IMG/VR virus record: IMGVR_UViG_3300013115_000353
Coordinates: 21,456 to 85,455 of that record
Origin: a virus
Direction: 5' to 3' (one strand)
Length of the DNA stretch: 64,000 nt
Below the pieces are notes generated by a model. That model was given only the letters and a program-made list of their open reading frames with translations. It was not told the origin of the DNA and made no database searches. The position numbers and the translations under genes are program-made. Below are positions 12,479 through 53,028 of this stretch, in pieces; position 1 is the stretch's first letter; every line of letters begins with the position of its first letter.

Positions 12479-12563
12479 TGGTAGGGGCGGTGGGACTTGA
12501 ACCCACATGCACCAGTTACCCAAGTTTCATGCACCGCTTATAAGACGGCTGGGATACGCCCCC
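12479..12563 (-). tRNA. Atypical tRNA-like gene, anticodon TAT (Ile, AUA), no canonical D arm
   Basis: Acceptor GGGGGCG/CGCCCCT plus ACCA; T arm GTGGG TTCAAGT CCCAC; anticodon arm GCCGT CT-TAT-AA GCGGT; only TATCCCA between acceptor and anticodon arm; 26-nt extra region. Confidence 0.7.
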
Positions 12564-12564
12564 T

Positions 12565-12639
12565 TGGTAGGTCCACCAGGAATCGAACCTGGAACGAAAG
12601 ATTAGAAGTCTTTTGTGATATCCCTTTCACCATAGACCC
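12565..12639 (-). tRNA. tRNA-Arg(TCT)
   Basis: GGGTCTA...AAAGA CT TCT AA TCTTT...CCAGG TTCGATT CCTGG TGGACCT ACCA, 75 nt. Confidence 0.92.
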
Positions 12640-12642
12640 ATG

Positions 12643-13119
12643 TTATTGTTCCAGGTTTAAGGTGCCGTGTGGCGTTTTAACGCTCACGTCCCAACCACCC
12701 AGAAGGGGGGTATTATGAATAAGATTGGCTACCGGAATCTGCACAACGGCAGTAAGGGTGGTGAAGCCCCGTTTATGATCGTACCTCTCCGTTGAACTCT
12801 CAACGATTTCAGTATCATAGAAGTTTTCGTTAATAGTCTCGATAAGGTATTCAGCGAATGTATTATCGCGTTCGTAGTCTTCAAGGTAGCCATCCTCTCG
12901 CAAAGTATCTAAGATGCTGCTTCCACTCCAGCAGTCGCGCACGTCTAAACCAGGCGTGGCAAGCAGATTGCTCAAGTAATATACCACATCGGTTTCTGCC
13001 AGTGCGGTTTCTATCTCAGTTTCGTTGTGGATAAAAACATCAGTTCCCTCACTACATGTAAGGACTGCCATCGTATCTTCCGGCAGATTAAGTTGTTTCA
13101 AAGTATCATATACAGACAA
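12643..13119 (-). CDS. Acidic hypothetical protein
   Basis: 158 aa; TTG start with GAGGAGG RBS. Confidence 0.7.
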   Translation of the reverse strand: MSVYDTLKQLNLPEDTMAVLTCSEGTDVFIHNETEIETALAETDVVYYLSNLLATPGLDVRDCWSGSSILDTLREDGYLEDYERDNTFAEYLIETINENFYDTEIVESSTERYDHKRGFTTLTAVVQIPVANLIHNTPLLGGWDVSVKTPHGTLNLEQ

Positions 13120-13349: not shown

Positions 13350-13449
13350 ACTCCGTAGCAACGACATATGCAAAAAATATACCGCACGCTACAGCAGCGG
13401 CGAATGCAAATATCATCATGATTTATCTCCTTTAATAGTAGCAAATAGG

Positions 13450-13523
13450 TGGGCCTTCTGGGACTTGAACCCAGGACCATCCGGTTATGAGCCGGGTGCT
13501 CTGACCAACTGAGCTAAAAGCCC
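13450..13523 (-). tRNA. tRNA with CAT anticodon (probably Ile2, lysidine type; Met not excluded)
   Basis: GGGCTTT TAGCTCAGTTGGTCAGAGC A CCCGG CT CAT AA CCGGA...CTGGG TTCAAGT CCCAG AAGGCCC A; genomic 3' end reads CCT, not CCA. Confidence 0.9.
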
Positions 13524-13529
13524 ATTGAT

Positions 13530-13558
13530 AGTATAACATTTAGTATCAATGAAGTCAA
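13530..13558 (-). promoter_or_regulatory. Sigma70-type promoter for the tRNA operon
   Basis: TTGACT, 17 bp, TATACT with TGn extension; tRNA 5' end is 7 nt downstream. Confidence 0.75.
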
Positions 13559-25694: not shown

Positions 25695-25991
25695 TTAACC
25701 TCTTATTACTTGTTTTGTTTTAGTCTTATTTAGCGCCGTTTCAATAGTTTCTGGCGCGCCTACCACTACAATCTCAGAGCCGGTGTGGCCGCGATTAATG
25801 CTTAACTTCGAAAATCTGTGGTTTTTATTTAGCTCAGACGGTAGCTTTCCTTGTTCATTTAATTGTTTCATTCGTGATTCTTCACGGATCATTACTACAT
25901 GTTCGGGATTAATAAAAATCTCTCGTAAAGTATAAGTTTGCTGTGATGTAATAGCATTATTGTTACACACTTCGGTTAGCTTGATTAACAT
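25695..25991 (-). CDS. Hypothetical phage protein
   Basis: IKLTEV...IFINPEHVV...IVVVG.P..I pattern; GGAGG RBS. Confidence 0.65.
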   Translation of the reverse strand: MLIKLTEVCNNNAITSQQTYTLREIFINPEHVVMIREESRMKQLNEQGKLPSELNKNHRFSKLSINRGHTGSEIVVVGAPETIETALNKTKTKQVIRG

Positions 25992-26211
25992 TTACTTCCT
26001 CCACGTTCATTGGATACACTTGCTCTCTTGAAACATACCATTGTGAGCCTTGAAAAAATACTTTTATCCACGTGGGCGTCACGAAATCGTCAATGACAAT
26101 CGCCGCCTGTGGTTTTAAAGTTTTAATATATTCTGATGGAGCTTTTTCAAGCTCATTAAGCAATGTAACATCTTGTGGGATGTAGCATAAATCTCCTTTT
26201 GTTATTTTCAT
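25963..26211 (-). CDS. Small SH3/KOW-like protein
   Basis: TKGDLCYI...KVFF...WYV. Confidence 0.55.
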   Translation of the reverse strand: MKITKGDLCYIPQDVTLLNELEKAPSEYIKTLKPQAAIVIDDFVTPTWIKVFFQGSQWYVSREQVYPMNVEEVNVNQANRSV

Positions 26212-26214
26212 TTT

Positions 26215-27786
26215 TTATCCTGTTTGTATGATACCATAATTAGTTGTGATGAGAGTGCCAGCACAACTAGCGGCATTCTGTAAAGCAACTCTCGTTACTT
26301 TAACGGGATCTATAATACCGTCCACTAACATATCTGTCAATTTTCCATTTTTAAAATCCCAACCTTTTTCTTCTCCGGATTCCAATATCTTATTAATAAT
26401 CAAATCTGGAGATTCGTTAGCGTTCAGAGCCATCTGCCTGATGGGCTCTTTGCATGCAGCTTGTACAATGGCTGCGCCTATAGCGATGTCTCGTTCTTTA
26501 GCTGTAATCACTAAAGTATTAGAGGCGCGCAACAATGCACACCCTCCTCCTGCAATAATCCCCTCTTCCTGCGCAGAGCGTACTGCCTCCAGGGCATCTT
26601 CTATCCTATGTTTCTTTTCTGTCATTTCCACTTCGGTTGTGCCTCCAACACGAATCACTGCTACTCCCGATGCCAGGCGCACAATTCTTTCTTGAACTGC
26701 TGTACATTCTTTCAAATCTTCGGTGTCTTTAATTATGTTTTTCAACGTTTCTATGCGCTGCTCTACTATTTCAAAATCACATTTACCACCCACTACGGTA
26801 GTATTATATTTATTACTCTCAATAAATTTTGCACTGCCTAAATGAATCATTTTTACATCTTTAAGTTTGATGCCCGATTCACGAGTAATAAATGTGGCAC
26901 CAGTAGAAACGGCAAGATCCGAAAGAGTAGTTCGGCGCTCTTCGCCATAATGGGGAGCCTTAATCGCTGCCACCTTAAGAGTGCCACGCATTGCGTTCAT
27001 AATCATTGCTGCCAATGCTTGTCCGTCGATGTCTTCCGCTACCACCACCAGCGGCCTAGCCTCTCTAGCTGTCATTTCTAGCAAAGGGAGAATCTGTTCT
27101 ACTGCATCAATCTTGTAATCTGTTACCAGAAGCAACGGATCATCGTGGTGCATAGTAGCACGACGCTCGTCAGTGATGAAAGCATTAGCGCAATAACCAC
27201 TATTAAGCCGGAACCCCTCTGTAACATCTAATGAAGTCTCCAAAGATCGCGACTCTTCAATAGTAATAGATCCATCTTGACCCACACGATCAACAGCAAG
27301 AGCGATAAGTTTTCCGATTGATTCATCATTGTTGGCAGAAATGGTCGCAACATGAGCGATCTCATCTGAACTTCTAACTGGGCGCGCTTGTGTTCTAAGC
27401 TTTTCTGTAATTTCTTTAGTTGCAAGTTCTATTCCTTTTTGTAAATCGTAAGGCGAGACACCTGAAGCGACATATTTCTGTGATTCTCTTAAGATTGCTC
27501 TCGCCAGTACGGTGGACGTGGTCGTCCCGTCGCCAGCAGTGTTATTAGTTTCTACTGCTGCTTGTTTGATAATTTGTACTCCAGCATTTTCAAAGGGATC
27601 GTCTAACGCAACAAAGTGCGCCACAGTTACACCGTCCTTAGTAATAAATGGTGTCTTTCCTTTCTCCTGTAAAAGTACATTGCGCCCCTTGGGGCCTAGT
27701 GTGGAAGCTACGTTGTCAGCAAGAACGTTTACTCCCTTCATAATTTTCTGTTGTAGAGTTTGTTTGCTGTCATAATCTCTAGTCAA
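26215..27786 (-). CDS. groEL: Chaperonin GroEL
   Basis: TLGPKGRNV, ITKDGVTVA, AGDGTTT, GVAVIRVGG, GIIDPVKVTR; no GGM tail. Confidence 0.97.
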   Translation of the reverse strand: MTRDYDSKQTLQQKIMKGVNVLADNVASTLGPKGRNVLLQEKGKTPFITKDGVTVAHFVALDDPFENAGVQIIKQAAVETNNTAGDGTTTSTVLARAILRESQKYVASGVSPYDLQKGIELATKEITEKLRTQARPVRSSDEIAHVATISANNDESIGKLIALAVDRVGQDGSITIEESRSLETSLDVTEGFRLNSGYCANAFITDERRATMHHDDPLLLVTDYKIDAVEQILPLLEMTAREARPLVVVAEDIDGQALAAMIMNAMRGTLKVAAIKAPHYGEERRTTLSDLAVSTGATFITRESGIKLKDVKMIHLGSAKFIESNKYNTTVVGGKCDFEIVEQRIETLKNIIKDTEDLKECTAVQERIVRLASGVAVIRVGGTTEVEMTEKKHRIEDALEAVRSAQEEGIIAGGGCALLRASNTLVITAKERDIAIGAAIVQAACKEPIRQMALNANESPDLIINKILESGEEKGWDFKNGKLTDMLVDGIIDPVKVTRVALQNAASCAGTLITTNYGIIQTG

Positions 27787-45105: not shown

Positions 45106-47073
45106 TTAAATAGTACATGAATCATTTGTACAAAACTTTGTCCCGCTTCCGCCTTCTTCATCTTCCACGCGCTGGAGTGGGGAGATGTTTTTTATCATAC
45201 GGTTGTAAGTACTCTTATCAATTGCTTCGTAGGGAGCTTGTTCGTATCCTGTCTCTTTATATCTCAAAAAAGAGACAGCTTTAAGGCGCGTTTCATACAT
45301 TTCTAGAGCATCTTTAATTTGGGGCGCCTCCTCGTCATTAAATGTAACCGTAATAGAAACAGAATTATCTGCCCAATAATGTTGATATTGGGCGGCGATC
45401 TCAAGCTGCTCCCACATACTTACATTGCGTTTGCCCTTTACAAAATAAGGCTCATGAATAGGAAACTCTACCACCTTAGTATTAGGAGAGTATTGATCAT
45501 CTTCTATCGTATAGCCAGCATTTTGAAGTGCAACCAACAATTGAGATTGATTTGAAAAACGAATGCGACGAATATAGTATTCGCTCTCAGGAAAATGAAT
45601 TCCTGGGGTGGATCCATTCAGCAACGAAACCGTACCGGATGGCTTGATAGAGGTTGTTCTAACAGACTTAGGGATGCACAGCCAATTAGAATATTCCTCA
45701 TCTAATTCGGCTACATGCTTATAGGCATTGTCGCACCATTGATACATTGTTCTTCTTCCAAACTTATTAAATGCCTGTACAACTCCAGACTGAGATAGTC
45801 CGATTCTTCTATTCTTCAACATCTTTGCGTTGGTTTCGGGCCATTGAGTGTTTGTAAGAGTAACAGTCTTGCCATAAAGATAGGCAATCTTAAGCGTCTT
45901 TAAATAATCTTCATAAGAATCGTGCTTGGCAGGATATGTCTCAACCAAACAACATAACTCTCCATCTTCAAGCTGTTGCTCAACACAAGGATTAAACCCT
46001 GCAACGTTAATGTCATCGTATCTTTCAGGATCCTTAAACCTTCCTCTGATGCGTGCATTATTGAGCCAGATATATCCTGGCTCGCCATTCTTCTGGCTCT
46101 GTTCTGCATGCCACGTATAGTCCATTCCTACTTCAGCCACAAAAGAATTATTGGAACCCCAACGATGATGATAAAGCTTCTCTTGATCGTTCTTCATCTG
46201 AAGATAATGCATGTCATCGTGGGTGCCCATCGCCAGAGCGGCTGACCGACGAACGTTTCCTGCCACAACACATCTACCGATCAGATTCTCAACATCAACG
46301 ATGTCAACTGAAGTGATTGGTTCGCCTACCTTGTCTAAAAACAATTCTGCTAAATTTTCGTGCAGTTCTTTAAGAGGAGCGGCACCACTCGAAGTGCCTC
46401 CAAATCCTTTAATGAGGGCACCTTCAGGACGGATGGCGGAATAATCAAACTTGGGTACCTTAGTCCCGAAGAAATATCCATCTAATAAGATATGAACTGA
46501 ATTCACCCAGCCTTCTCTAGAGTCATCAATAATATGAATGTCGTTGGTTTGTTCTGGCTCTTTGATAATGAGGCTACCGGCGCCCAGAGTGTCAAACCCC
46601 ACGCCAATACCCACCATCAAAGCGTCCATCATCCAAGAAAATAAATAACCTCCCTTGGAGGAGAGTTCTCTAGTAGATCGAAAGGCACAATTAAAAAGGC
46701 CGGCGCCTGTTTTTTCTTCAACAAACTTCGTGCCCATCATCCACAACCCACGTCCAGGTGGCGTCCATTTCAAATTAAACAAACGATCATATGCATCCTT
46801 GGCGGTTCGTTGTGCTTTTGCGTCATTCCATTCTAAGCCGTTATCAATGACATGTTGTTTCTGCATATTAAACATGCCCTCAACGACGCGGCGACATGTC
46901 TGCCACCACTCCTCAGTACCTACAGCATCGGAATCAAACTCGTTCAGTCGGCGCGCATAAGTACGCTTGAACGTGACATATCCCAGTGGGCCCCATGGTA
47001 TCTCTTGGGTTTTATACGGATCAATAAACACATCTGACAATCTAAATCTGCGGACATTTTGTGAAGTTCTCAT
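45106..47073 (-). CDS. nrdJ: Class II (adenosylcobalamin-dependent) monomeric ribonucleoside-triphosphate reductase
   Basis: PPGRGLW, FNCAF, GNVRRSA, NPCVEQ, KPSGTVS, C-terminal C...C. Confidence 0.93.
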   Translation of the reverse strand: MRTSQNVRRFRLSDVFIDPYKTQEIPWGPLGYVTFKRTYARRLNEFDSDAVGTEEWWQTCRRVVEGMFNMQKQHVIDNGLEWNDAKAQRTAKDAYDRLFNLKWTPPGRGLWMMGTKFVEEKTGAGLFNCAFRSTRELSSKGGYLFSWMMDALMVGIGVGFDTLGAGSLIIKEPEQTNDIHIIDDSREGWVNSVHILLDGYFFGTKVPKFDYSAIRPEGALIKGFGGTSSGAAPLKELHENLAELFLDKVGEPITSVDIVDVENLIGRCVVAGNVRRSAALAMGTHDDMHYLQMKNDQEKLYHHRWGSNNSFVAEVGMDYTWHAEQSQKNGEPGYIWLNNARIRGRFKDPERYDDINVAGFNPCVEQQLEDGELCCLVETYPAKHDSYEDYLKTLKIAYLYGKTVTLTNTQWPETNAKMLKNRRIGLSQSGVVQAFNKFGRRTMYQWCDNAYKHVAELDEEYSNWLCIPKSVRTTSIKPSGTVSLLNGSTPGIHFPESEYYIRRIRFSNQSQLLVALQNAGYTIEDDQYSPNTKVVEFPIHEPYFVKGKRNVSMWEQLEIAAQYQHYWADNSVSITVTFNDEEAPQIKDALEMYETRLKAVSFLRYKETGYEQAPYEAIDKSTYNRMIKNISPLQRVEDEEGGSGTKFCTNDSCTI

Positions 47074-50828: not shown

Positions 50829-51953
50829 TTATTCATTTTCTTCGTAAAAATCTTTCGCATTGCCCAATCTTTCATCGAACTTTCTCACCACTTCCTCATC
50901 CATCAGTTGGAGAATCTTTTCTCTAAATTCTGAATCTTCACGAATCAAACCACTCCACTTAGACGGTTGAAACTTCTTGGTATATCCATCGGGCATCGTG
51001 AGCGTATACCACGCACCAGCACTCGTCAAATAATCTGAACTCTTGATGGCATCAAACCAGCTTTCCTCATCGCGGATACCAATATCTTTTGTACCCCACA
51101 TAATACGGAAAGTACAGTTTCTGCCTTGTGTCCCAAAGCGAGACTTTTCTAGTTTACACCTCACCTCTGAGCCAATGCGAAATCCCTTTTCGTCTGTGAC
51201 AAAAGAACTCTTTGACTTGCGCCCTGTCAACCAGATACGCAAAGAGTATGCGTAATGCATAGCCTTACCACCAGGGGTAGTATACGGAGTTACCATAGCA
51301 ATCTGTCGTGCCATTGGCCCTGATGGAATGTTTGTCTTCAGCTGGTTCAAAACCAGAAAAGTAGCTTGCTGATCCGCAATCGGAATAGTAAGCTTTGACA
51401 TTCCCTTTGCCAGAATACGAGCCTTCACTGCCATCGATGATTGAGGATTAAAATCTCCTTCAATATCAGAAATAGCCGGCGTCAATGCCAACGAATCCCA
51501 GATGAAAACAAGCTGTTCATCAGTCGCTCCAAGCAACTCTTCAATCGTCTCCAAGACGAACTCAACAGACGTTGCCTGGATGTACATAAGACGCTCTAGG
51601 TCGCAGCCTGAGCGCTCCAAAAAGTCAGGATCGATAGCAGACTCGGAATCAAAATACACCACAAGCTTACCCTGTTTCTGGGCGTTTGCTGCTATCTGTG
51701 CTGCCATGTATGACTTGCCTGTGGACTCCAACCCTGCTAGCTCTGTGATCTTCCCAACGGGGATGCCGGCTACTTGTCCACGACACACAATGGAGTCCAG
51801 CCAGCGTGAGCCAGTAGGGATCCATTCCTTTACTTGCGTGGGATTTGAGCCAGTTAAATCATGGGCTACATTTCTGCCGGCCTTCTTGTTAACGATCTTC
51901 ATCAGATCTTGCATTGCTACTCGACCCGGCTTTGTTTGTGCTTTTCTAGCCAT
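50829..51953 (-). CDS. recA: RecA/UvsX-family recombinase
   Basis: Start moved to ATG 51953; IPTGS..LD, GLESTGKS, YFDSESA, VWDS-like FIWDSLA, LNQ, TPGGKA. Confidence 0.92.
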   Translation of the reverse strand: MARKAQTKPGRVAMQDLMKIVNKKAGRNVAHDLTGSNPTQVKEWIPTGSRWLDSIVCRGQVAGIPVGKITELAGLESTGKSYMAAQIAANAQKQGKLVVYFDSESAIDPDFLERSGCDLERLMYIQATSVEFVLETIEELLGATDEQLVFIWDSLALTPAISDIEGDFNPQSSMAVKARILAKGMSKLTIPIADQQATFLVLNQLKTNIPSGPMARQIAMVTPYTTPGGKAMHYAYSLRIWLTGRKSKSSFVTDEKGFRIGSEVRCKLEKSRFGTQGRNCTFRIMWGTKDIGIRDEESWFDAIKSSDYLTSAGAWYTLTMPDGYTKKFQPSKWSGLIREDSEFREKILQLMDEEVVRKFDERLGNAKDFYEENE

Positions 51954-53028
51954 CGCTGTCTGTGTCTCCTTTATCCACAAATGGATAAGATATTAATGAA
52001 TGTTGATTTTCTTTCTTTGGACCCTCCATGATCTGCGGAATGAATTTTATAACCTCAAAGTTTCTTCTAGAGAAAATATGAAGCGAGCTATCAATATATC
52101 TTTTTAATAGTTCTACATACTCATCCCGTTGATCAAGAATATCAGTTGGGTTTTTTTTATCAGAAAACCCCACAAAATGGACAGTCACATTCTCCAGATC
52201 TTTTTGAGGGATTTTACTAGTACCCGATTCTAATTCTATTAAAGTCGGGAGAAGAAGCCCAAAAGTTTTAGCGGCCAACTTAGCGGGAAAAACACATGGT
52301 ATGGAATTTGTTTCTCGACAATACTTCACGTTATTAAATTTCCCATTCTTAATAAACGTTTTAAACTCCGGAAAATCTCTCTCGATCAGCCACTGTTGAG
52401 CATCTGTCATCGCATAGCCATTCACTTTAAGAAGCGTCGGCCCTTTGCCAACTTCATTAAAAATTTGTCTTATCAACCTTCTCCTACTCACAGTAGTGTT
52501 TTGTGGTAGACTGTCGTTTACTAAAGTAGTAACATTTTCAACCTTCTTTTCGTCAGACAAACATTGCCAATCTTCTAGAAGACTTGCTTTTCCTACTTCT
52601 AATATGTCGGGCTCACTATTGCCTTGAATAGACCCCTTTACCTTATTAAGGGTAACTTGCAATCTTTTTAGTTTGGCTCCCGCTGGCCGTGCGTCCACCA
52701 GCATATATACAGGTACCGAAGTCCACCCCAGTCCACGTAACGCTGGATCTCTAGTGTATCCCTCAATCAAGTATGATGTTGAATCCACGAACAAAGGAGT
52801 CAAAAGGCCATCTGCGAGAATAGACAGTCTCTTTCTAGCAATTTCTTTGGATACAGTGCCAAAAACTCTAACCTGATTGTTCTTTTGATCCCGTTTGATG
52901 TCTTTCAGGCGCATTTCCGTCAAGGTAAATGTATAGGATCCATCCATAGTTTCAACAGTTACCTCAGATGGGTATGAGTTAATATCATAATTTTTCACTA
53001 CTTTTAATTTCGCTTGTTCTTGGTGCAT
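51946..53028 (-). CDS. Hypothetical protein with a ParB/Srx-like N-terminal domain
   Basis: NQVR...SILADGLLTPLFV...LIEGYTR..AL..LG...VPV. Confidence 0.55.
   Translation of the reverse strand: MHQEQAKLKVVKNYDINSYPSEVTVETMDGSYTFTLTEMRLKDIKRDQKNNQVRVFGTVSKEIARKRLSILADGLLTPLFVDSTSYLIEGYTRDPALRGLGWTSVPVYMLVDARPAGAKLKRLQVTLNKVKGSIQGNSEPDILEVGKASLLEDWQCLSDEKKVENVTTLVNDSLPQNTTVSRRRLIRQIFNEVGKGPTLLKVNGYAMTDAQQWLIERDFPEFKTFIKNGKFNNVKYCRETNSIPCVFPAKLAAKTFGLLLPTLIELESGTSKIPQKDLENVTVHFVGFSDKKNPTDILDQRDEYVELLKRYIDSSLHIFSRRNFEVIKFIPQIMEGPKKENQHSLISYPFVDKGDTDSDG

What the first reader, a model, noticed from the sequence alone, without database searches (positions are those of the whole stretch)
12479..12563. 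Rearranged tRNA with UAU anticodon: D arm absent, D-loop-like sequence moved into the variable region
Seen: GGGGGCG-TA-TCCCA-GCCGT-CT[TAT]AA-GCGGT-GCATGAAACTTGGGTAACTGGTGCAT-GTGGG-TTCAAGT-CCCAC-CGCCCCT-A-CCA. Acceptor stem, U8-A9, anticodon arm, T arm and encoded CCA are intact, but only TCCCA sits where the D hairpin should be. The 26-nt extra region contains TGGG (complementary to that CCCA), followed by a D-loop-like TAACTGG, and is flanked by TGCA/TGCA. It lies 1 nt downstream of a canonical tRNA-Arg(TCT). Established: bacteria normally read AUA with lysidine-modified CAU tRNA and rarely encode UAU anticodons. Inference: the D stem is rebuilt as a long-range, pseudoknot-like pairing, giving a topologically permuted tRNA. 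It could decode AUA without TilS, or act as a decoy or nuclease-resistant tRNA. Standard scanners would probably miss it or call it a pseudogene.
Basis: partly seen in the sequence, partly recalled or inferred. Interest (0 to 1): 0.8.

Follow-up and report, generated by a model that had tools for sequence, protein, structure and literature searches.

The report
Phage tRNA(UAU) with permuted D-arm
This 85-base gene of a marine phage is very probably a working isoleucine tRNA for the codon AUA; it has all the standard tRNA parts, but half of the D-arm lies after the anticodon arm and pairs back across it, a non-cloverleaf layout shared by phages from the sea to Felix O1 that gene finders miss.

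Summary
The acceptor stem, U8-A9, anticodon arm (UAU), T arm, A73 and CCA are intact. There is no D hairpin, and a 26-nt region follows the anticodon arm.

It is not a one-off. I collected 90 distinct relatives, about 140 instances, from viral and metagenome contigs.

In these, the three bases CCC of the connector covary with the three bases just before a conserved UA(A/G) motif. They are 96-99% paired, with C-G, U-A, A-U and G-C at the same positions. A second helix crosses the first to form a pseudoknot. The canonical core signatures are kept: U8, A14, R15-Y48, G18G19 and the T loop.

The same layout carries GAU, UCU and CCU anticodons. It occurs unannotated in cultured phages: Felix O1 (UCU, the "missing" AGA tRNA), Streptomyces BK phages (GAU) and Rhodococcus phage Peregrin (UAU).

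A relative of this phage has an ordinary tRNA-Ile(UAU) in the same slot.

Charging and decoding are inferred, not shown.

I found no paper describing this layout. Earlier notes of this scan report the same family on other DNA.

The parts
12479..12563 (-). Whole gene: 85-nt permuted-core tRNA(UAU) including the encoded CCA
   Evidence: Sequence; R1 covariance model 102 bits; Rfam RF00005 33.5 bits in sensitive mode
12557..12563 (-). Acceptor stem, 5' strand GGGGGCG (pairs with 12483-12489)
   Evidence: 7 of 7 pairs show changes on both sides across the family, 96.8% paired
12555..12556 (-). U8 and the following A. Both are invariant. The A directly precedes the 22-25-like strand, so it may stand for A21 rather than A9 (inference).
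   Evidence: Invariant columns T8 and A9 in alignment A1
12550..12554 (-). Connector UCCCA. The CCC at 12551-12553 is the strand of the long-range D-stem-like helix that runs straight on into the anticodon stem, as positions 23-25 do in a cloverleaf. The flanking U and A behave like positions 22 and 26.
   Evidence: Anchor-based pairing 99%, against 57-59% with a 1-nt shift; 3 of 3 pairs with changes on both sides
12533..12549 (-). Anticodon arm GCCGU-CUUAUAA-GCGGU; anticodon UAU at 12540-12542, with U33 and A37
   Evidence: 5 of 5 stem pairs with changes on both sides; the loop is CUUAUA(A/U/C) in 86 of 90 members
12529..12532 (-). 5' strand of helix P (GCAU); GCA pairs with UGC at 12509-12511
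   Evidence: In 74 long-linker members, pair 1 is G-C 63 / C-G 11, pair 2 is C-G 70 / G-C 4, and pair 3 is 91% paired
12523..12528 (-). Variable linker GAAACU between helix P and the relocated D-stem strand
   Evidence: Length and sequence vary, 2-11 nt between the anticodon stem and the relocated strand
12519..12522 (-). Relocated D-stem strand UGGG. The GGG at 12519-12521 pairs with CCC at 12551-12553 and corresponds to positions 10-12.
12512..12518 (-). Relocated D-loop UAACUGG, read as U(13)-A14-A15-C-U-G18-G19
   Evidence: UA(A/G)...GG is conserved in all members. R15 covaries with the base before the T stem: A..U 81, G..C 5, G..G 1.
12507..12511 (-). UGCAU: 3' strand of helix P (UGC), a conserved A, and the U48-like Levitt partner
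   Evidence: the U43..A combination occurs in 72 of 74 long-linker members
12490..12506 (-). T arm GUGGG-UUCAAGU-CCCAC
   Evidence: 99.8% paired, 4 of 5 pairs with changes on both sides; GGTTC.A is invariant
12482..12489 (-). Acceptor stem 3' strand CGCCCCU and discriminator A73
   Evidence: Discriminator is A in 87 of 90 members
12479..12481 (-). Encoded CCA end
   Evidence: CCA is encoded in 64 of 90 members
12565..12639 (-). Canonical tRNA-Arg(UCU), 1 nt upstream; probably co-transcribed
   Evidence: ARAGORN; Rfam 60.9 bits. A tRNA-Arg(UCU) lies within 60 nt on the same strand in 33 of 133 UAU instances.

Best explanation
This is a functional phage tRNA gene with a non-cloverleaf, 'D-arm-permuted' core. 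The acceptor stem, T arm and anticodon arm are standard. Directly after U8 and one A comes the D-stem strand that normally lies 3' of the D loop (22-25-like, here UCCC), and it runs straight into the anticodon stem. The other D-stem strand (10-12-like, GGG) and the D loop (A14, R15, G18G19) are encoded after the anticodon arm, where a class II tRNA has its variable arm, and pair back across that arm. A short helix P (GCA/UGC) closes the inserted segment and makes the fold a pseudoknot. Shown: the two helices, and conservation of the bases that build the canonical elbow and core. Inferred: the RNA folds into an L shape like other tRNAs, is cut out of the Arg(UCU)-containing transcript, is charged (most likely with isoleucine by host IleRS, which reads A35, U36, A37 and A73), and reads AUA with U34, with no need for lysidine or TilS. 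On this reading it supplies, together with the neighbouring tRNA-Arg(UCU), decoders for two A-rich codons that the phage uses heavily.
For: STRUCTURE.
- 90 distinct homologues share the layout.
- The long-range helix is 96-99% paired. C-G, U-A, A-U and G-C occur at the same positions. Pairing drops to 57-59% when the register is shifted by one, and 0 of 500 shuffles reach the observed values.
- Helix P covaries: G-C/C-G at pair 1 and C-G/G-C at pair 2.
- U8, A14-like A, G18G19-like GG and the T loop are invariant. R15 covaries with position 48: A-U 81, G-C 5.
- The covariance model gives members 55-102 bits and ordinary tRNAs 37 bits or less.

TRANSLATION ROLE (all indirect).
- Members sit inside phage tRNA arrays, often 1-10 nt from a neighbouring tRNA. 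One example is a 20-tRNA array that has no other UAU tRNA.
- In L005 an 11-of-12 sigma-70-like promoter ends about 12 nt upstream of the member.
- None of 133 loci with a UAU member holds a separate canonical tRNA-Ile(UAU).
- In L251 a homologue of the window's upstream protein (51% identity) is followed by tRNA-Asn, Arg(UCU) and then a canonical tRNA-Ile(UAU). In the window and in L225 it is followed by Arg(UCU) and then the permuted UAU tRNA.
- The phage uses AUA for 22% of its Ile codons, and AGA is its commonest Arg codon.
- The same scaffold carries GAU (Ile), UCU and CCU (Arg) anticodons. The discriminator changes with them (A for Ile types, G or U for the Arg types found here). An A follows GG, the place of ArgRS determinant A20, in the CCU members and in Felix O1.
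- In Felix O1 the permuted UCU gene fills the gap that the genome paper noted: AGA is over-used but no tRNA for it was found (PMC3185647).
Against: - No RNA, processing, charging or decoding data exist for any member. No RNA run holding the sequence was found.
- Single-sequence folding is no better than shuffled sequence (z = -0.21) and does not predict the 3-bp long-range helix. That is expected for a tertiary-stabilised core, but it gives no support.
- Whether IleRS accepts a tRNA without a normal D arm is unknown.
- An unmodified U34 could also read AUG.
- The acceptor stem and T arm are identical (35 of 35 nt) to a phage tRNA-Leu(UAA). Because LeuRS ignores the anticodon, charging with Leu is not excluded.
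- The search patterns fixed either the UAU loop or the Ile-type variable motif. The share of UAU anticodons (86 of 90) is therefore biased.
- The loci are partial, so 'no other UAU tRNA' holds only within a few kb.
I could not see which part.
Confidence: 0.7

Rival explanations
1. It is a tRNA-like decoy or nuclease-resistant stand-in rather than an ordinary adaptor. On this view the rewired core lets the RNA escape, or soak up, host tRNA-targeting defence nucleases or toxins, or the phage's own host shut-off nuclease, aimed at Ile and Arg tRNAs. It might or might not also be used in translation.
For: The layout is confined to phages: in 185,579 species' genomes the variable-region pattern gave one true hit, on a MAG contig. 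No codon-supply argument explains why the architecture itself should be conserved. That phage tRNAs evade tRNA-targeting defences is an established theme (my own knowledge).
Against: No defence or nuclease gene was linked to it here. All features needed for aminoacylation and EF-Tu binding are kept: a 7/5 acceptor-T branch, A73, and CCA either encoded or supplied. The member replaces, rather than accompanies, the canonical UAU tRNA. A pure decoy would not need a discriminator and position-20 base that change with the anticodon.
Confidence: 0.15
2. It is a mis-charging tRNA. Derived from a class II tRNA-Leu(UAA) by one anticodon change, it would be charged by LeuRS (which ignores the anticodon) and insert Leu at AUA, as nematode nev-tRNA-Ile(UAU) does in vitro.
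For: The acceptor stem, T arm, A73 and CCA are identical to a phage tRNA-Leu(UAA) in L003 and nearly identical to a Leu(UAG) in L002. UAA differs from UAU by one base. Helix P sits where a class II variable arm sits. Many phages also carry class II tRNAs with a UAU anticodon. There are precedents: nev-tRNA (PMC4300185) and allo-tRNA, where UAU is the predominant anticodon (PMC5389517).
Against: Acceptor stems differ widely across the family, so the match to tRNA-Leu is lineage-specific. A GAU version exists in L084 and in 80+ Streptomyces phage records; charging that with Leu would mistranslate the main Ile codons. The phage uses AUA at 13.6 per 1000 codons in ordinary genes such as GroEL, RNR and RecA. 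E. coli LeuRS depends on the D-loop/core geometry, which is rewired here (my own knowledge).
Confidence: 0.07
3. It is a decaying tRNA pseudogene, or a gene whose transcript is spliced or rearranged into a normal cloverleaf (an intron or a permuted gene).
For: Gene finders skip it. An 8-nt direct repeat, GGUGCAUG, flanks part of the insert in this copy.
Against: There are 90 distinct sequences with compensatory changes in every helix, including the new one. The insert holds the only D-loop-like sequence, so removing it would leave a tRNA with no D arm at all. Restoring a cloverleaf would need two cuts and two ligations. No bulge-helix-bulge motif is apparent by eye, and 26 nt cannot hold a group I intron. 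The direct repeat is simply the two strands' surroundings of helix P and is not kept in other members.
Confidence: 0.03

Closest known systems
Canonical class I bacterial and phage tRNA-Ile(UAU) (Rfam RF00005), e.g. L251:3412-3487 in a relative of this phage, or Streptomyces phage Mildred21 gene 109
   Same: 7-bp acceptor stem, 5-bp T stem with a GGUUCRA loop, 5-bp anticodon stem with loop CUUAUAA, A73, CCA, position inside phage tRNA arrays next to tRNA-Arg(UCU).
   Different: There is no D hairpin between positions 9 and 26. One D-stem strand and the D loop lie 3' of the anticodon arm, and an extra helix P creates a pseudoknot. R1 scores the canonical gene only 32 bits, against 55-102 bits for members.
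Permuted-core phage tRNA-Arg(UCU), e.g. Salmonella phage Felix O1 NC_005282 25951-26032 (unannotated); reported repeatedly in earlier notes of this scan
   Same: Same architecture: UA, then U-CUC-A, the anticodon arm, a linker, GAG, then UAAGUGG. R1 gives 76 bits.
   Different: The anticodon is UCU. An A follows GG (A20-like). The tail is GAGUAU instead of UGCAU. It is common in cultured coliphages, whereas the UAU type is mostly uncultured marine, gut or soil, with Rhodococcus phage Peregrin as a cultured case.
Class II (long variable arm) tRNAs, including nematode nev-tRNA-Ile(UAU) (PMC4300185) and phage class II tRNA(UAU) such as L039:9370-9443
   Same: An extra helix emerges between the anticodon stem and the T stem. 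UAU anticodons occur on unusual scaffolds.
   Different: Class II tRNAs keep a normal D arm, and the loop of their variable arm is free. Here the loop of the extra arm supplies half of the D stem and the D loop.
D-arm-lacking mitochondrial tRNAs (e.g. metazoan mt-tRNA-Ser(AGY), nematode mt-tRNAs; review PMC7609411)
   Same: No D hairpin at the usual place, yet used (there) in translation.
   Different: Those tRNAs have lost the D arm and the G18G19/T-loop elbow contacts, and they work with adapted mitochondrial factors. Here every D-arm element is kept but re-ordered, and the T loop is canonical. The review mentions no pseudoknotted or permuted form and no phage case.
Circularly permuted tRNA genes of Cyanidioschyzon merolae (my own knowledge) and allo-tRNAs with 8/4 or 9/3 branches (PMC5389517)
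   Same: These are natural departures from the standard order or dimensions of tRNA parts. Allo-tRNAs also favour the UAU anticodon.
   Different: The permuted algal genes are processed back into a normal cloverleaf. Here the permutation is internal and would persist in the mature RNA. Allo-tRNAs change the acceptor/T stem lengths; this RNA has the standard 7/5.

Membership tests
tRNA (Rfam RF00005, cloverleaf) | 7-bp acceptor stem with discriminator base and CCA end | tested here: met
   GGGGGCG/CGCCCCU, A73 and CCA; 7 of 7 pairs covary
tRNA (Rfam RF00005, cloverleaf) | T arm: 5-bp stem and 7-nt loop with the T54-Psi55-C56 signature | tested here: met
   GUGGG-UUCAAGU-CCCAC; GGTTC.A invariant
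tRNA (Rfam RF00005, cloverleaf) | Anticodon arm: 5-bp stem, 7-nt loop, U33, purine 37 | tested here: met
   GCCGU-CUUAUAA-GCGGU; stem covaries
tRNA (Rfam RF00005, cloverleaf) | D arm as a hairpin between positions 9 and 26 | tested here: not met
   Only 5 nt (UCCCA) lie there. The Rfam alignment deletes the D arm and ARAGORN makes no call.
tRNA (Rfam RF00005, cloverleaf) | Score at or above the Rfam gathering threshold (29 bits) | tested here: inconclusive
   33.5 bits in sensitive mode, but not reported in the standard gathering-threshold scan of the window
tRNA (functional definition) | Aminoacylated and used by the ribosome | not testable with these tools
   Only indirect support: position in tRNA arrays, a syntenic swap with a canonical tRNA-Ile(UAU), and codon usage
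Permuted-core phage tRNA family (defined here by model R1) | 3-bp helix between the connector after U8-A and the 3 nt before UA(A/G)...GG located 3' of the anticodon arm | tested here: met
   CCC/GGG in the window; 99% paired family-wide with four pair types; R1 102 bits
Permuted-core phage tRNA family (defined here by model R1) | Helix P closing the inserted segment (long-linker subtype) | tested here: met
   GCA/UGC in the window; covaries in 74 members and is absent in 16 short-linker members
Class II tRNA (Leu/Ser/Tyr type) | Normal D arm plus a free-standing variable stem-loop | tested here: not met
   No D arm; the loop of the extra arm is engaged in the long-range helix
D-armless mitochondrial-type tRNA | D arm replaced by a short unpaired loop, with the elbow contacts lost | tested here: not met
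   The D-loop sequence and its partner T loop are conserved, and the D stem is rebuilt
tRNA-Ile identity (E. coli IleRS rules, my own knowledge: anticodon A35 U36, A37, A38, A73; C4-G69, U12-A23, C29-G41) | Anticodon-loop and discriminator determinants | tested here: met
   U34 A35 U36 A37 A38 and A73 in the window. A73 occurs in 87 of 90 members. Position 38 varies (A 60, U 20, C 6).
tRNA-Ile identity (E. coli IleRS rules, my own knowledge) | Stem-pair determinants C4-G69, U12-A23, C29-G41 | tested here: inconclusive
   The window has G4-C69 and C29-G41. Both positions vary freely in the family. The hosts are unknown and their rules may differ.

The most novel reading that the evidence does not exclude
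Bacterial ribosomes, EF-Tu, RNase P and at least two class I synthetases (IleRS and ArgRS) routinely use a natural tRNA that is not a cloverleaf. The rewiring would itself be adaptive. A covalent tether across the hinge between the D stem and the anticodon stem could change how the tRNA bends during decoding, so that U34 reads AUA but not AUG without lysidine. Alternatively, the rewiring could make the phage's Ile and Arg tRNAs invisible to host tRNA-targeting nucleases.
Probability: 0.3. Interest if true: 0.92.

Novelty: new variant of a known kind. Interest (0 to 1): 0.85.

Why it matters
The cloverleaf is treated as universal for tRNAs used by bacterial translation. A 2024 paper states that all known bacterial tRNAs adopt it (PMC11551756, abstract as listed). 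A conserved family with the same parts joined in a different order would show that the L shape can be reached by another topology.

It would also mean that tRNA counts, and analyses matching codons to tRNAs, are systematically incomplete for phages. Felix O1's "missing" AGA tRNA is one example.

It would offer a natural scaffold that may be orthogonal to some tRNA-binding enzymes. It would also give a TilS-independent route to AUA decoding that can be tested in cultured systems: Rhodococcus phage Peregrin, Streptomyces BK-cluster phages and Felix O1.

Tried and rejected
- RNA evidence: no RNA holder was listed. Laying four runs gave only contigs. One contig from a run guessed to be RNA carries a diverged copy in other flanks, which says nothing about expression.
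- TilS (PF01171) in the phage's own contig: no match, but the contig is only 44% complete, so nothing follows.
- Pfam on eight neighbouring small ORFs gave nothing useful.
- A GroEL tblastn for taxonomy gave only ~44% hits spread over unrelated phages. The host remains unknown. The habitat is marine, judging from the runs that hold the DNA.
- Single-sequence MFE folding: z = -0.21, and it predicts helix P but not the long-range helix. It is uninformative.
- blastn of a GC-rich member (L071) against GenBank phages: no match.
- An alternative register, CCAG/CUGG, was considered and dropped. Shifted registers pair far less well.
- Intron, pseudogene and class II readings were rejected (see the rival explanations).
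- 'Anticodon always UAU' was rejected: GAU, UCU and CCU versions exist. My patterns were biased towards UAU.
- Eight literature searches and targeted word searches within five papers found no description of this layout. That is not proof that none exists.
- tRNAscan-SE and 3-D RNA modelling were not available.
Full report
THE OBSERVATION

The feature lies on the minus strand of window 12479-12563. It begins 1 nt after the CCA of a canonical tRNA-Arg(UCU) at 12565-12639.

ARAGORN finds three tRNAs in the window (Thr, Arg, Met/CAU) but not this one. Rfam's tRNA model does not report it in the standard scan. In sensitive mode it gives 33.5 bits (gathering score 29), with the D arm deleted and a 23-nt insertion in the variable region. 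Folding the single sequence is no better than folding shuffled sequence (z = -0.21) and predicts only the acceptor, anticodon and T helices plus a UGCA/UGCA stem.

The window belongs to an 85-kb IMG/VR contig estimated to be 44% complete. The runs that hold the DNA are marine. The contig encodes a GroEL-type chaperonin, a class II ribonucleotide reductase, DnaB, RecA and a family A DNA polymerase.

IT IS A FAMILY, NOT A ONE-OFF

An exact search for part of the variable region found two more viral contigs with the same layout.

I then ran two kinds of pattern search. One left the connector free but fixed the anticodon loop. The other fixed only the variable-region motif and the T loop, leaving the anticodon free.

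Parsing these by fixed anchors gave 90 distinct sequences. Acceptor stems vary widely: GGGGGCG, AGGAGCG, GCCUCAG, CGGGGAG, CCCGCAG, CCGCGCG, ACUGGCA and others.

Of the 16 hits in one genome per 185,579 prokaryotic species, only one is a true member, on a 306-kb contig of a Candidatus Fimenecus MAG. The rest are chance matches in coding sequence. By this pattern the family is essentially viral.

A covariance model built from the alignment (R1) scores about 145 instances at 55-102 bits and every ordinary tRNA in the same 1.6 Mb at 37 bits or less.

THE STRUCTURE

I took the five nucleotides after U8-A (X1-X5, here UCCCA) and the four nucleotides immediately before the last UA(A/G)...GG motif (here UGGG). 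Both were defined by anchors, without using complementarity.
- X2, X3 and X4 pair with the three bases before the motif in 100%, 100% and 97% of 87 sequences.
- C-G, G-C, A-U and U-A all occur at these positions. Examples are CCC/GGG, CUC/GAG, CGU/ACG, CGG/CCG, CAG/CUG, CCU/AGG and AGG/CCU.
- Shifting the register by one base drops pairing to 57-59%.

On the MAFFT alignment, which was not fitted to any structure (A1), this helix is 96.3% paired and all three pairs show changes on both sides. For the whole structure, 96% of cells are paired, against 78% in shuffles (0 of 500 reach the observed value) and 40-47% for slid partners.

The U before CCC faces a U after GGG in 81 of 87.

A second helix, P, joins the first three bases after the anticodon stem (GCA) to UGC just before the T stem. 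In the 74 members with a long linker, pair 1 is G-C 63 / C-G 11, pair 2 is C-G 70 / G-C 4, and pair 3 is 91% paired. Helix P crosses the long-range helix, so the fold is a pseudoknot. Sixteen members with a short linker (AGAA, UGAA and the like) lack helix P but keep everything else.

READING THE STRUCTURE IN STANDARD tRNA NUMBERING (INFERENCE FROM THE ABOVE)

After the relocated strand comes U-A-R-Y-Y-G-G. This is the D-loop signature: A14, R15, G18, G19. R15 covaries with the last base before the T stem, as the R15-Y48 Levitt pair does (A..U 81, G..C 5, G..G 1). U8, the A14-like A, GG and the T-loop GGUUCRA are invariant or nearly so.

The strand after U8-A runs straight into the anticodon stem, as positions 22-26 do in a cloverleaf. 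So UCCCA maps to 22-23-24-25-26, GGG-U maps to 10-11-12-13, and the U.U is a 13.22 mismatch.

Relative to a cloverleaf, the segment of about positions 9/10 to 20 has been taken out from between U8 and A21. It has been re-inserted into the variable region, at the place where class II tRNAs carry their extra arm. All elements needed for the canonical core and elbow are present. Only the chain connectivity differs.

I could not model this in three dimensions.

FUNCTION

None of the following is direct evidence.

1. Members sit inside phage tRNA arrays, often 1-10 nt from a neighbouring tRNA. One example lies between tRNA-Lys and tRNA-His in a 20-tRNA array that otherwise has no UAU tRNA.
2. In L005 an 11-of-12 sigma-70-like promoter with an extended -10 ends about 12 nt upstream of the gene, and tRNA-Arg(UCU) follows it.
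3. None of 133 loci with a UAU member contains a separate canonical tRNA-Ile(UAU). The ten ARAGORN 'Ile(tat)' calls in those loci are the members themselves, with wrong ends.
4. The protein encoded just upstream in the window (12643-13119, minus strand) has 52 relatives. In L225 it is followed by Arg(UCU) and the permuted tRNA, as in the window. In L251 (51% identity) it is followed by tRNA-Asn, tRNA-Arg(UCU) and then an ordinary cloverleaf tRNA-Ile(UAU) with the same anticodon loop, a similar T arm, A73 and CCA. This looks like a swap within one slot.
5. The phage uses AUA for 22% of its Ile codons (13.6 per 1000). AGA is its commonest Arg codon (13.1 per 1000).
6. The same scaffold occurs with other anticodons.
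   - GAU is found in L084, next to a UAU member, and in more than 80 Streptomyces BK-cluster phage records such as Mildred21 and Jay2Jay. There the gene lies just downstream of a tRNA nucleotidyltransferase gene and has no encoded CCA.
   - CCU occurs with discriminator U, and UCU with discriminator G.
   - UCU occurs in more than 200 GenBank phage records: Felix O1 and other Felixounaviruses, Klebsiella and Proteus phages, and jumbo coliphages.
   - In the CCU members and in Felix O1 an A follows GG, the position of the ArgRS determinant A20. In the Ile types this base is U or G.

A scaffold whose discriminator and position-20 base change with the anticodon looks like a set of real, differently charged tRNAs.

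Felix O1 is an instructive case. Its genome paper lists 22 tRNAs without this gene. It remarks that a tRNA for the over-used AGA codon would have been expected (PMC3185647). The permuted UCU gene lies at 25951-26032, partly under an annotated HNH endonuclease ORF, and scores 76 bits with R1.

For the UAU type, a cultured carrier is Rhodococcus phage Peregrin (63 bits, unannotated).

WHICH AMINO ACID?

A35, U36, A37 and A73 fit IleRS rules as known from E. coli (my own knowledge). The GAU sibling argues for Ile as well.

One observation points elsewhere. The window's acceptor stem, T arm, A73 and CCA are identical, 35 of 35 nt, to a class II tRNA-Leu(UAA) of another large phage (L003), and UAA differs from UAU by one base. 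Many phages also carry class II tRNAs with a UAU anticodon. This recalls the nematode nev-tRNA-Ile(UAU), which is charged with Leu (PMC4300185), and allo-tRNAs, whose predominant anticodon is UAU (PMC5389517).

Charging with Leu is therefore a minority possibility. Against it, acceptor stems vary widely in the family, and AUA is used at normal frequency in conserved genes.

COMPARISON WITH WHAT IS KNOWN

The review of natural non-canonical tRNAs (PMC7609411) and the allo-tRNA paper contain nothing on a permuted or pseudoknotted D arm. A 2024 paper states that all known bacterial tRNAs are cloverleaves (PMC11551756, abstract as listed). Eight full-text searches found no description.

D-armless mitochondrial tRNAs have lost the D arm; here it is re-ordered. 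The permuted tRNA genes of red algae are processed back to a cloverleaf; here that would need two cuts and two ligations.

I therefore class this as a new variant of a known kind: a tRNA with a new topology.

EARLIER NOTES OF THIS SCAN

After I had reached this reading, I looked up the scan's earlier notes. They report the same family many times on other DNA. Most are arginine versions, several are isoleucine(UAU) versions, and some include the Felix O1 point.

They agree with what I found independently. They are not independent evidence.

Two of them carry the remark that a later check of the same claim on other DNA found that 'part of it fell'. The notes do not say which part. For that reason I keep the functional claims (charging, decoding, 'phage-only', 'in no paper') at moderate confidence.

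LIMITS

- The search patterns fixed either the UAU loop or the Ile-type variable motif. The anticodon tally (86 UAU of 90) is biased.
- The loci are a few kb long.
- No RNA data were found.
- The host is unknown.
- The tRNA(CAU) at 13448-13523 could be a lysidine-type tRNA-Ile2 rather than tRNA-Met. If so, the phage has two routes to AUA. I could not decide this.

Noticed in passing
window 13448-13523 (-): A tRNA(CAU) that ARAGORN calls Met, with a 10-of-12 sigma-70-like promoter just upstream (13530-13558). It has C4-G69 and a UGGUC variable loop, so it might be a lysidine-type tRNA-Ile2 rather than an elongator tRNA-Met. If so, the phage would have two AUA decoders. Not resolved.
   Followed up: partly
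L084 1-5000 (IMGVR_UViG_3300031521_000714): A phage tRNA array of about 30% GC with several 87-91-nt, class II-like tRNAs (long variable arm, an extra base at the foot of the acceptor stem). Their anticodons are GUU (Asn), GUC (Asp), UUC (Glu) and CAU. Two permuted-core tRNAs (UAU and GAU) lie beside them. It looks like a collection of non-canonical tRNAs.
   Followed up: no
L039-L046, L053, L054, L061, L062, L068, L072 (positions): Many phage contigs carry class II tRNAs (normal D arm plus long variable arm) with a UAU anticodon and A73. They are reminiscent of nematode nev-tRNA-Ile(UAU) and allo-tRNA(UAU), and their charging identity is an open question.
   Followed up: no
L003:3113-3197 and L002:402-484: Phage tRNA-Leu(UAA) and tRNA-Leu(UAG) have a T arm, 3' acceptor strand and A73 identical to the window's permuted tRNA. 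In L003 the whole acceptor stem and the CCA are identical too. This could mean common origin, recombination between tRNA genes, or chance.
   Followed up: partly
L005:6488-6823 (-); L226-L250, near position 20-1125: Relatives of this phage group encode their own tmRNA, with tag peptides such as ANNNLHFQQRLAA and ANNNNHFDSVRLAA, close to the tRNA genes.
   Followed up: no
L223:1964-2577 (Mildred21) and L277:665-1276 (Jay2Jay): In Streptomyces BK-cluster phages the permuted tRNA-Ile(GAU) has no encoded CCA and lies about 15 nt downstream of a phage tRNA nucleotidyltransferase gene. The same phages also have an ordinary tRNA-Ile(UAU).
   Followed up: partly
L224:1501-1582 (Felix O1 NC_005282 25951-26032): The start of the annotated HNH endonuclease ORF45 (26003) overlaps the 3' part of the unannotated permuted tRNA-Arg(UCU). 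In other Felixounavirus records the same stretch is labelled 'hypothetical protein', 'tRNA-OTHER' or nothing.
   Followed up: partly
window 26215-27786 (-), 45106-47073 (-), 50829-51980 (-): The phage encodes a GroEL-type chaperonin (Cpn60, E 4e-62), a class II (B12-type) ribonucleotide reductase and a RecA homologue.
   Followed up: no
all permuted-core members seen here: The architecture appeared only with isoleucine (UAU, GAU) and arginine (UCU, CCU) anticodons. Why these two amino acids is unexplained. Both are served by class I synthetases that read the anticodon and the D-loop region.
   Followed up: partly
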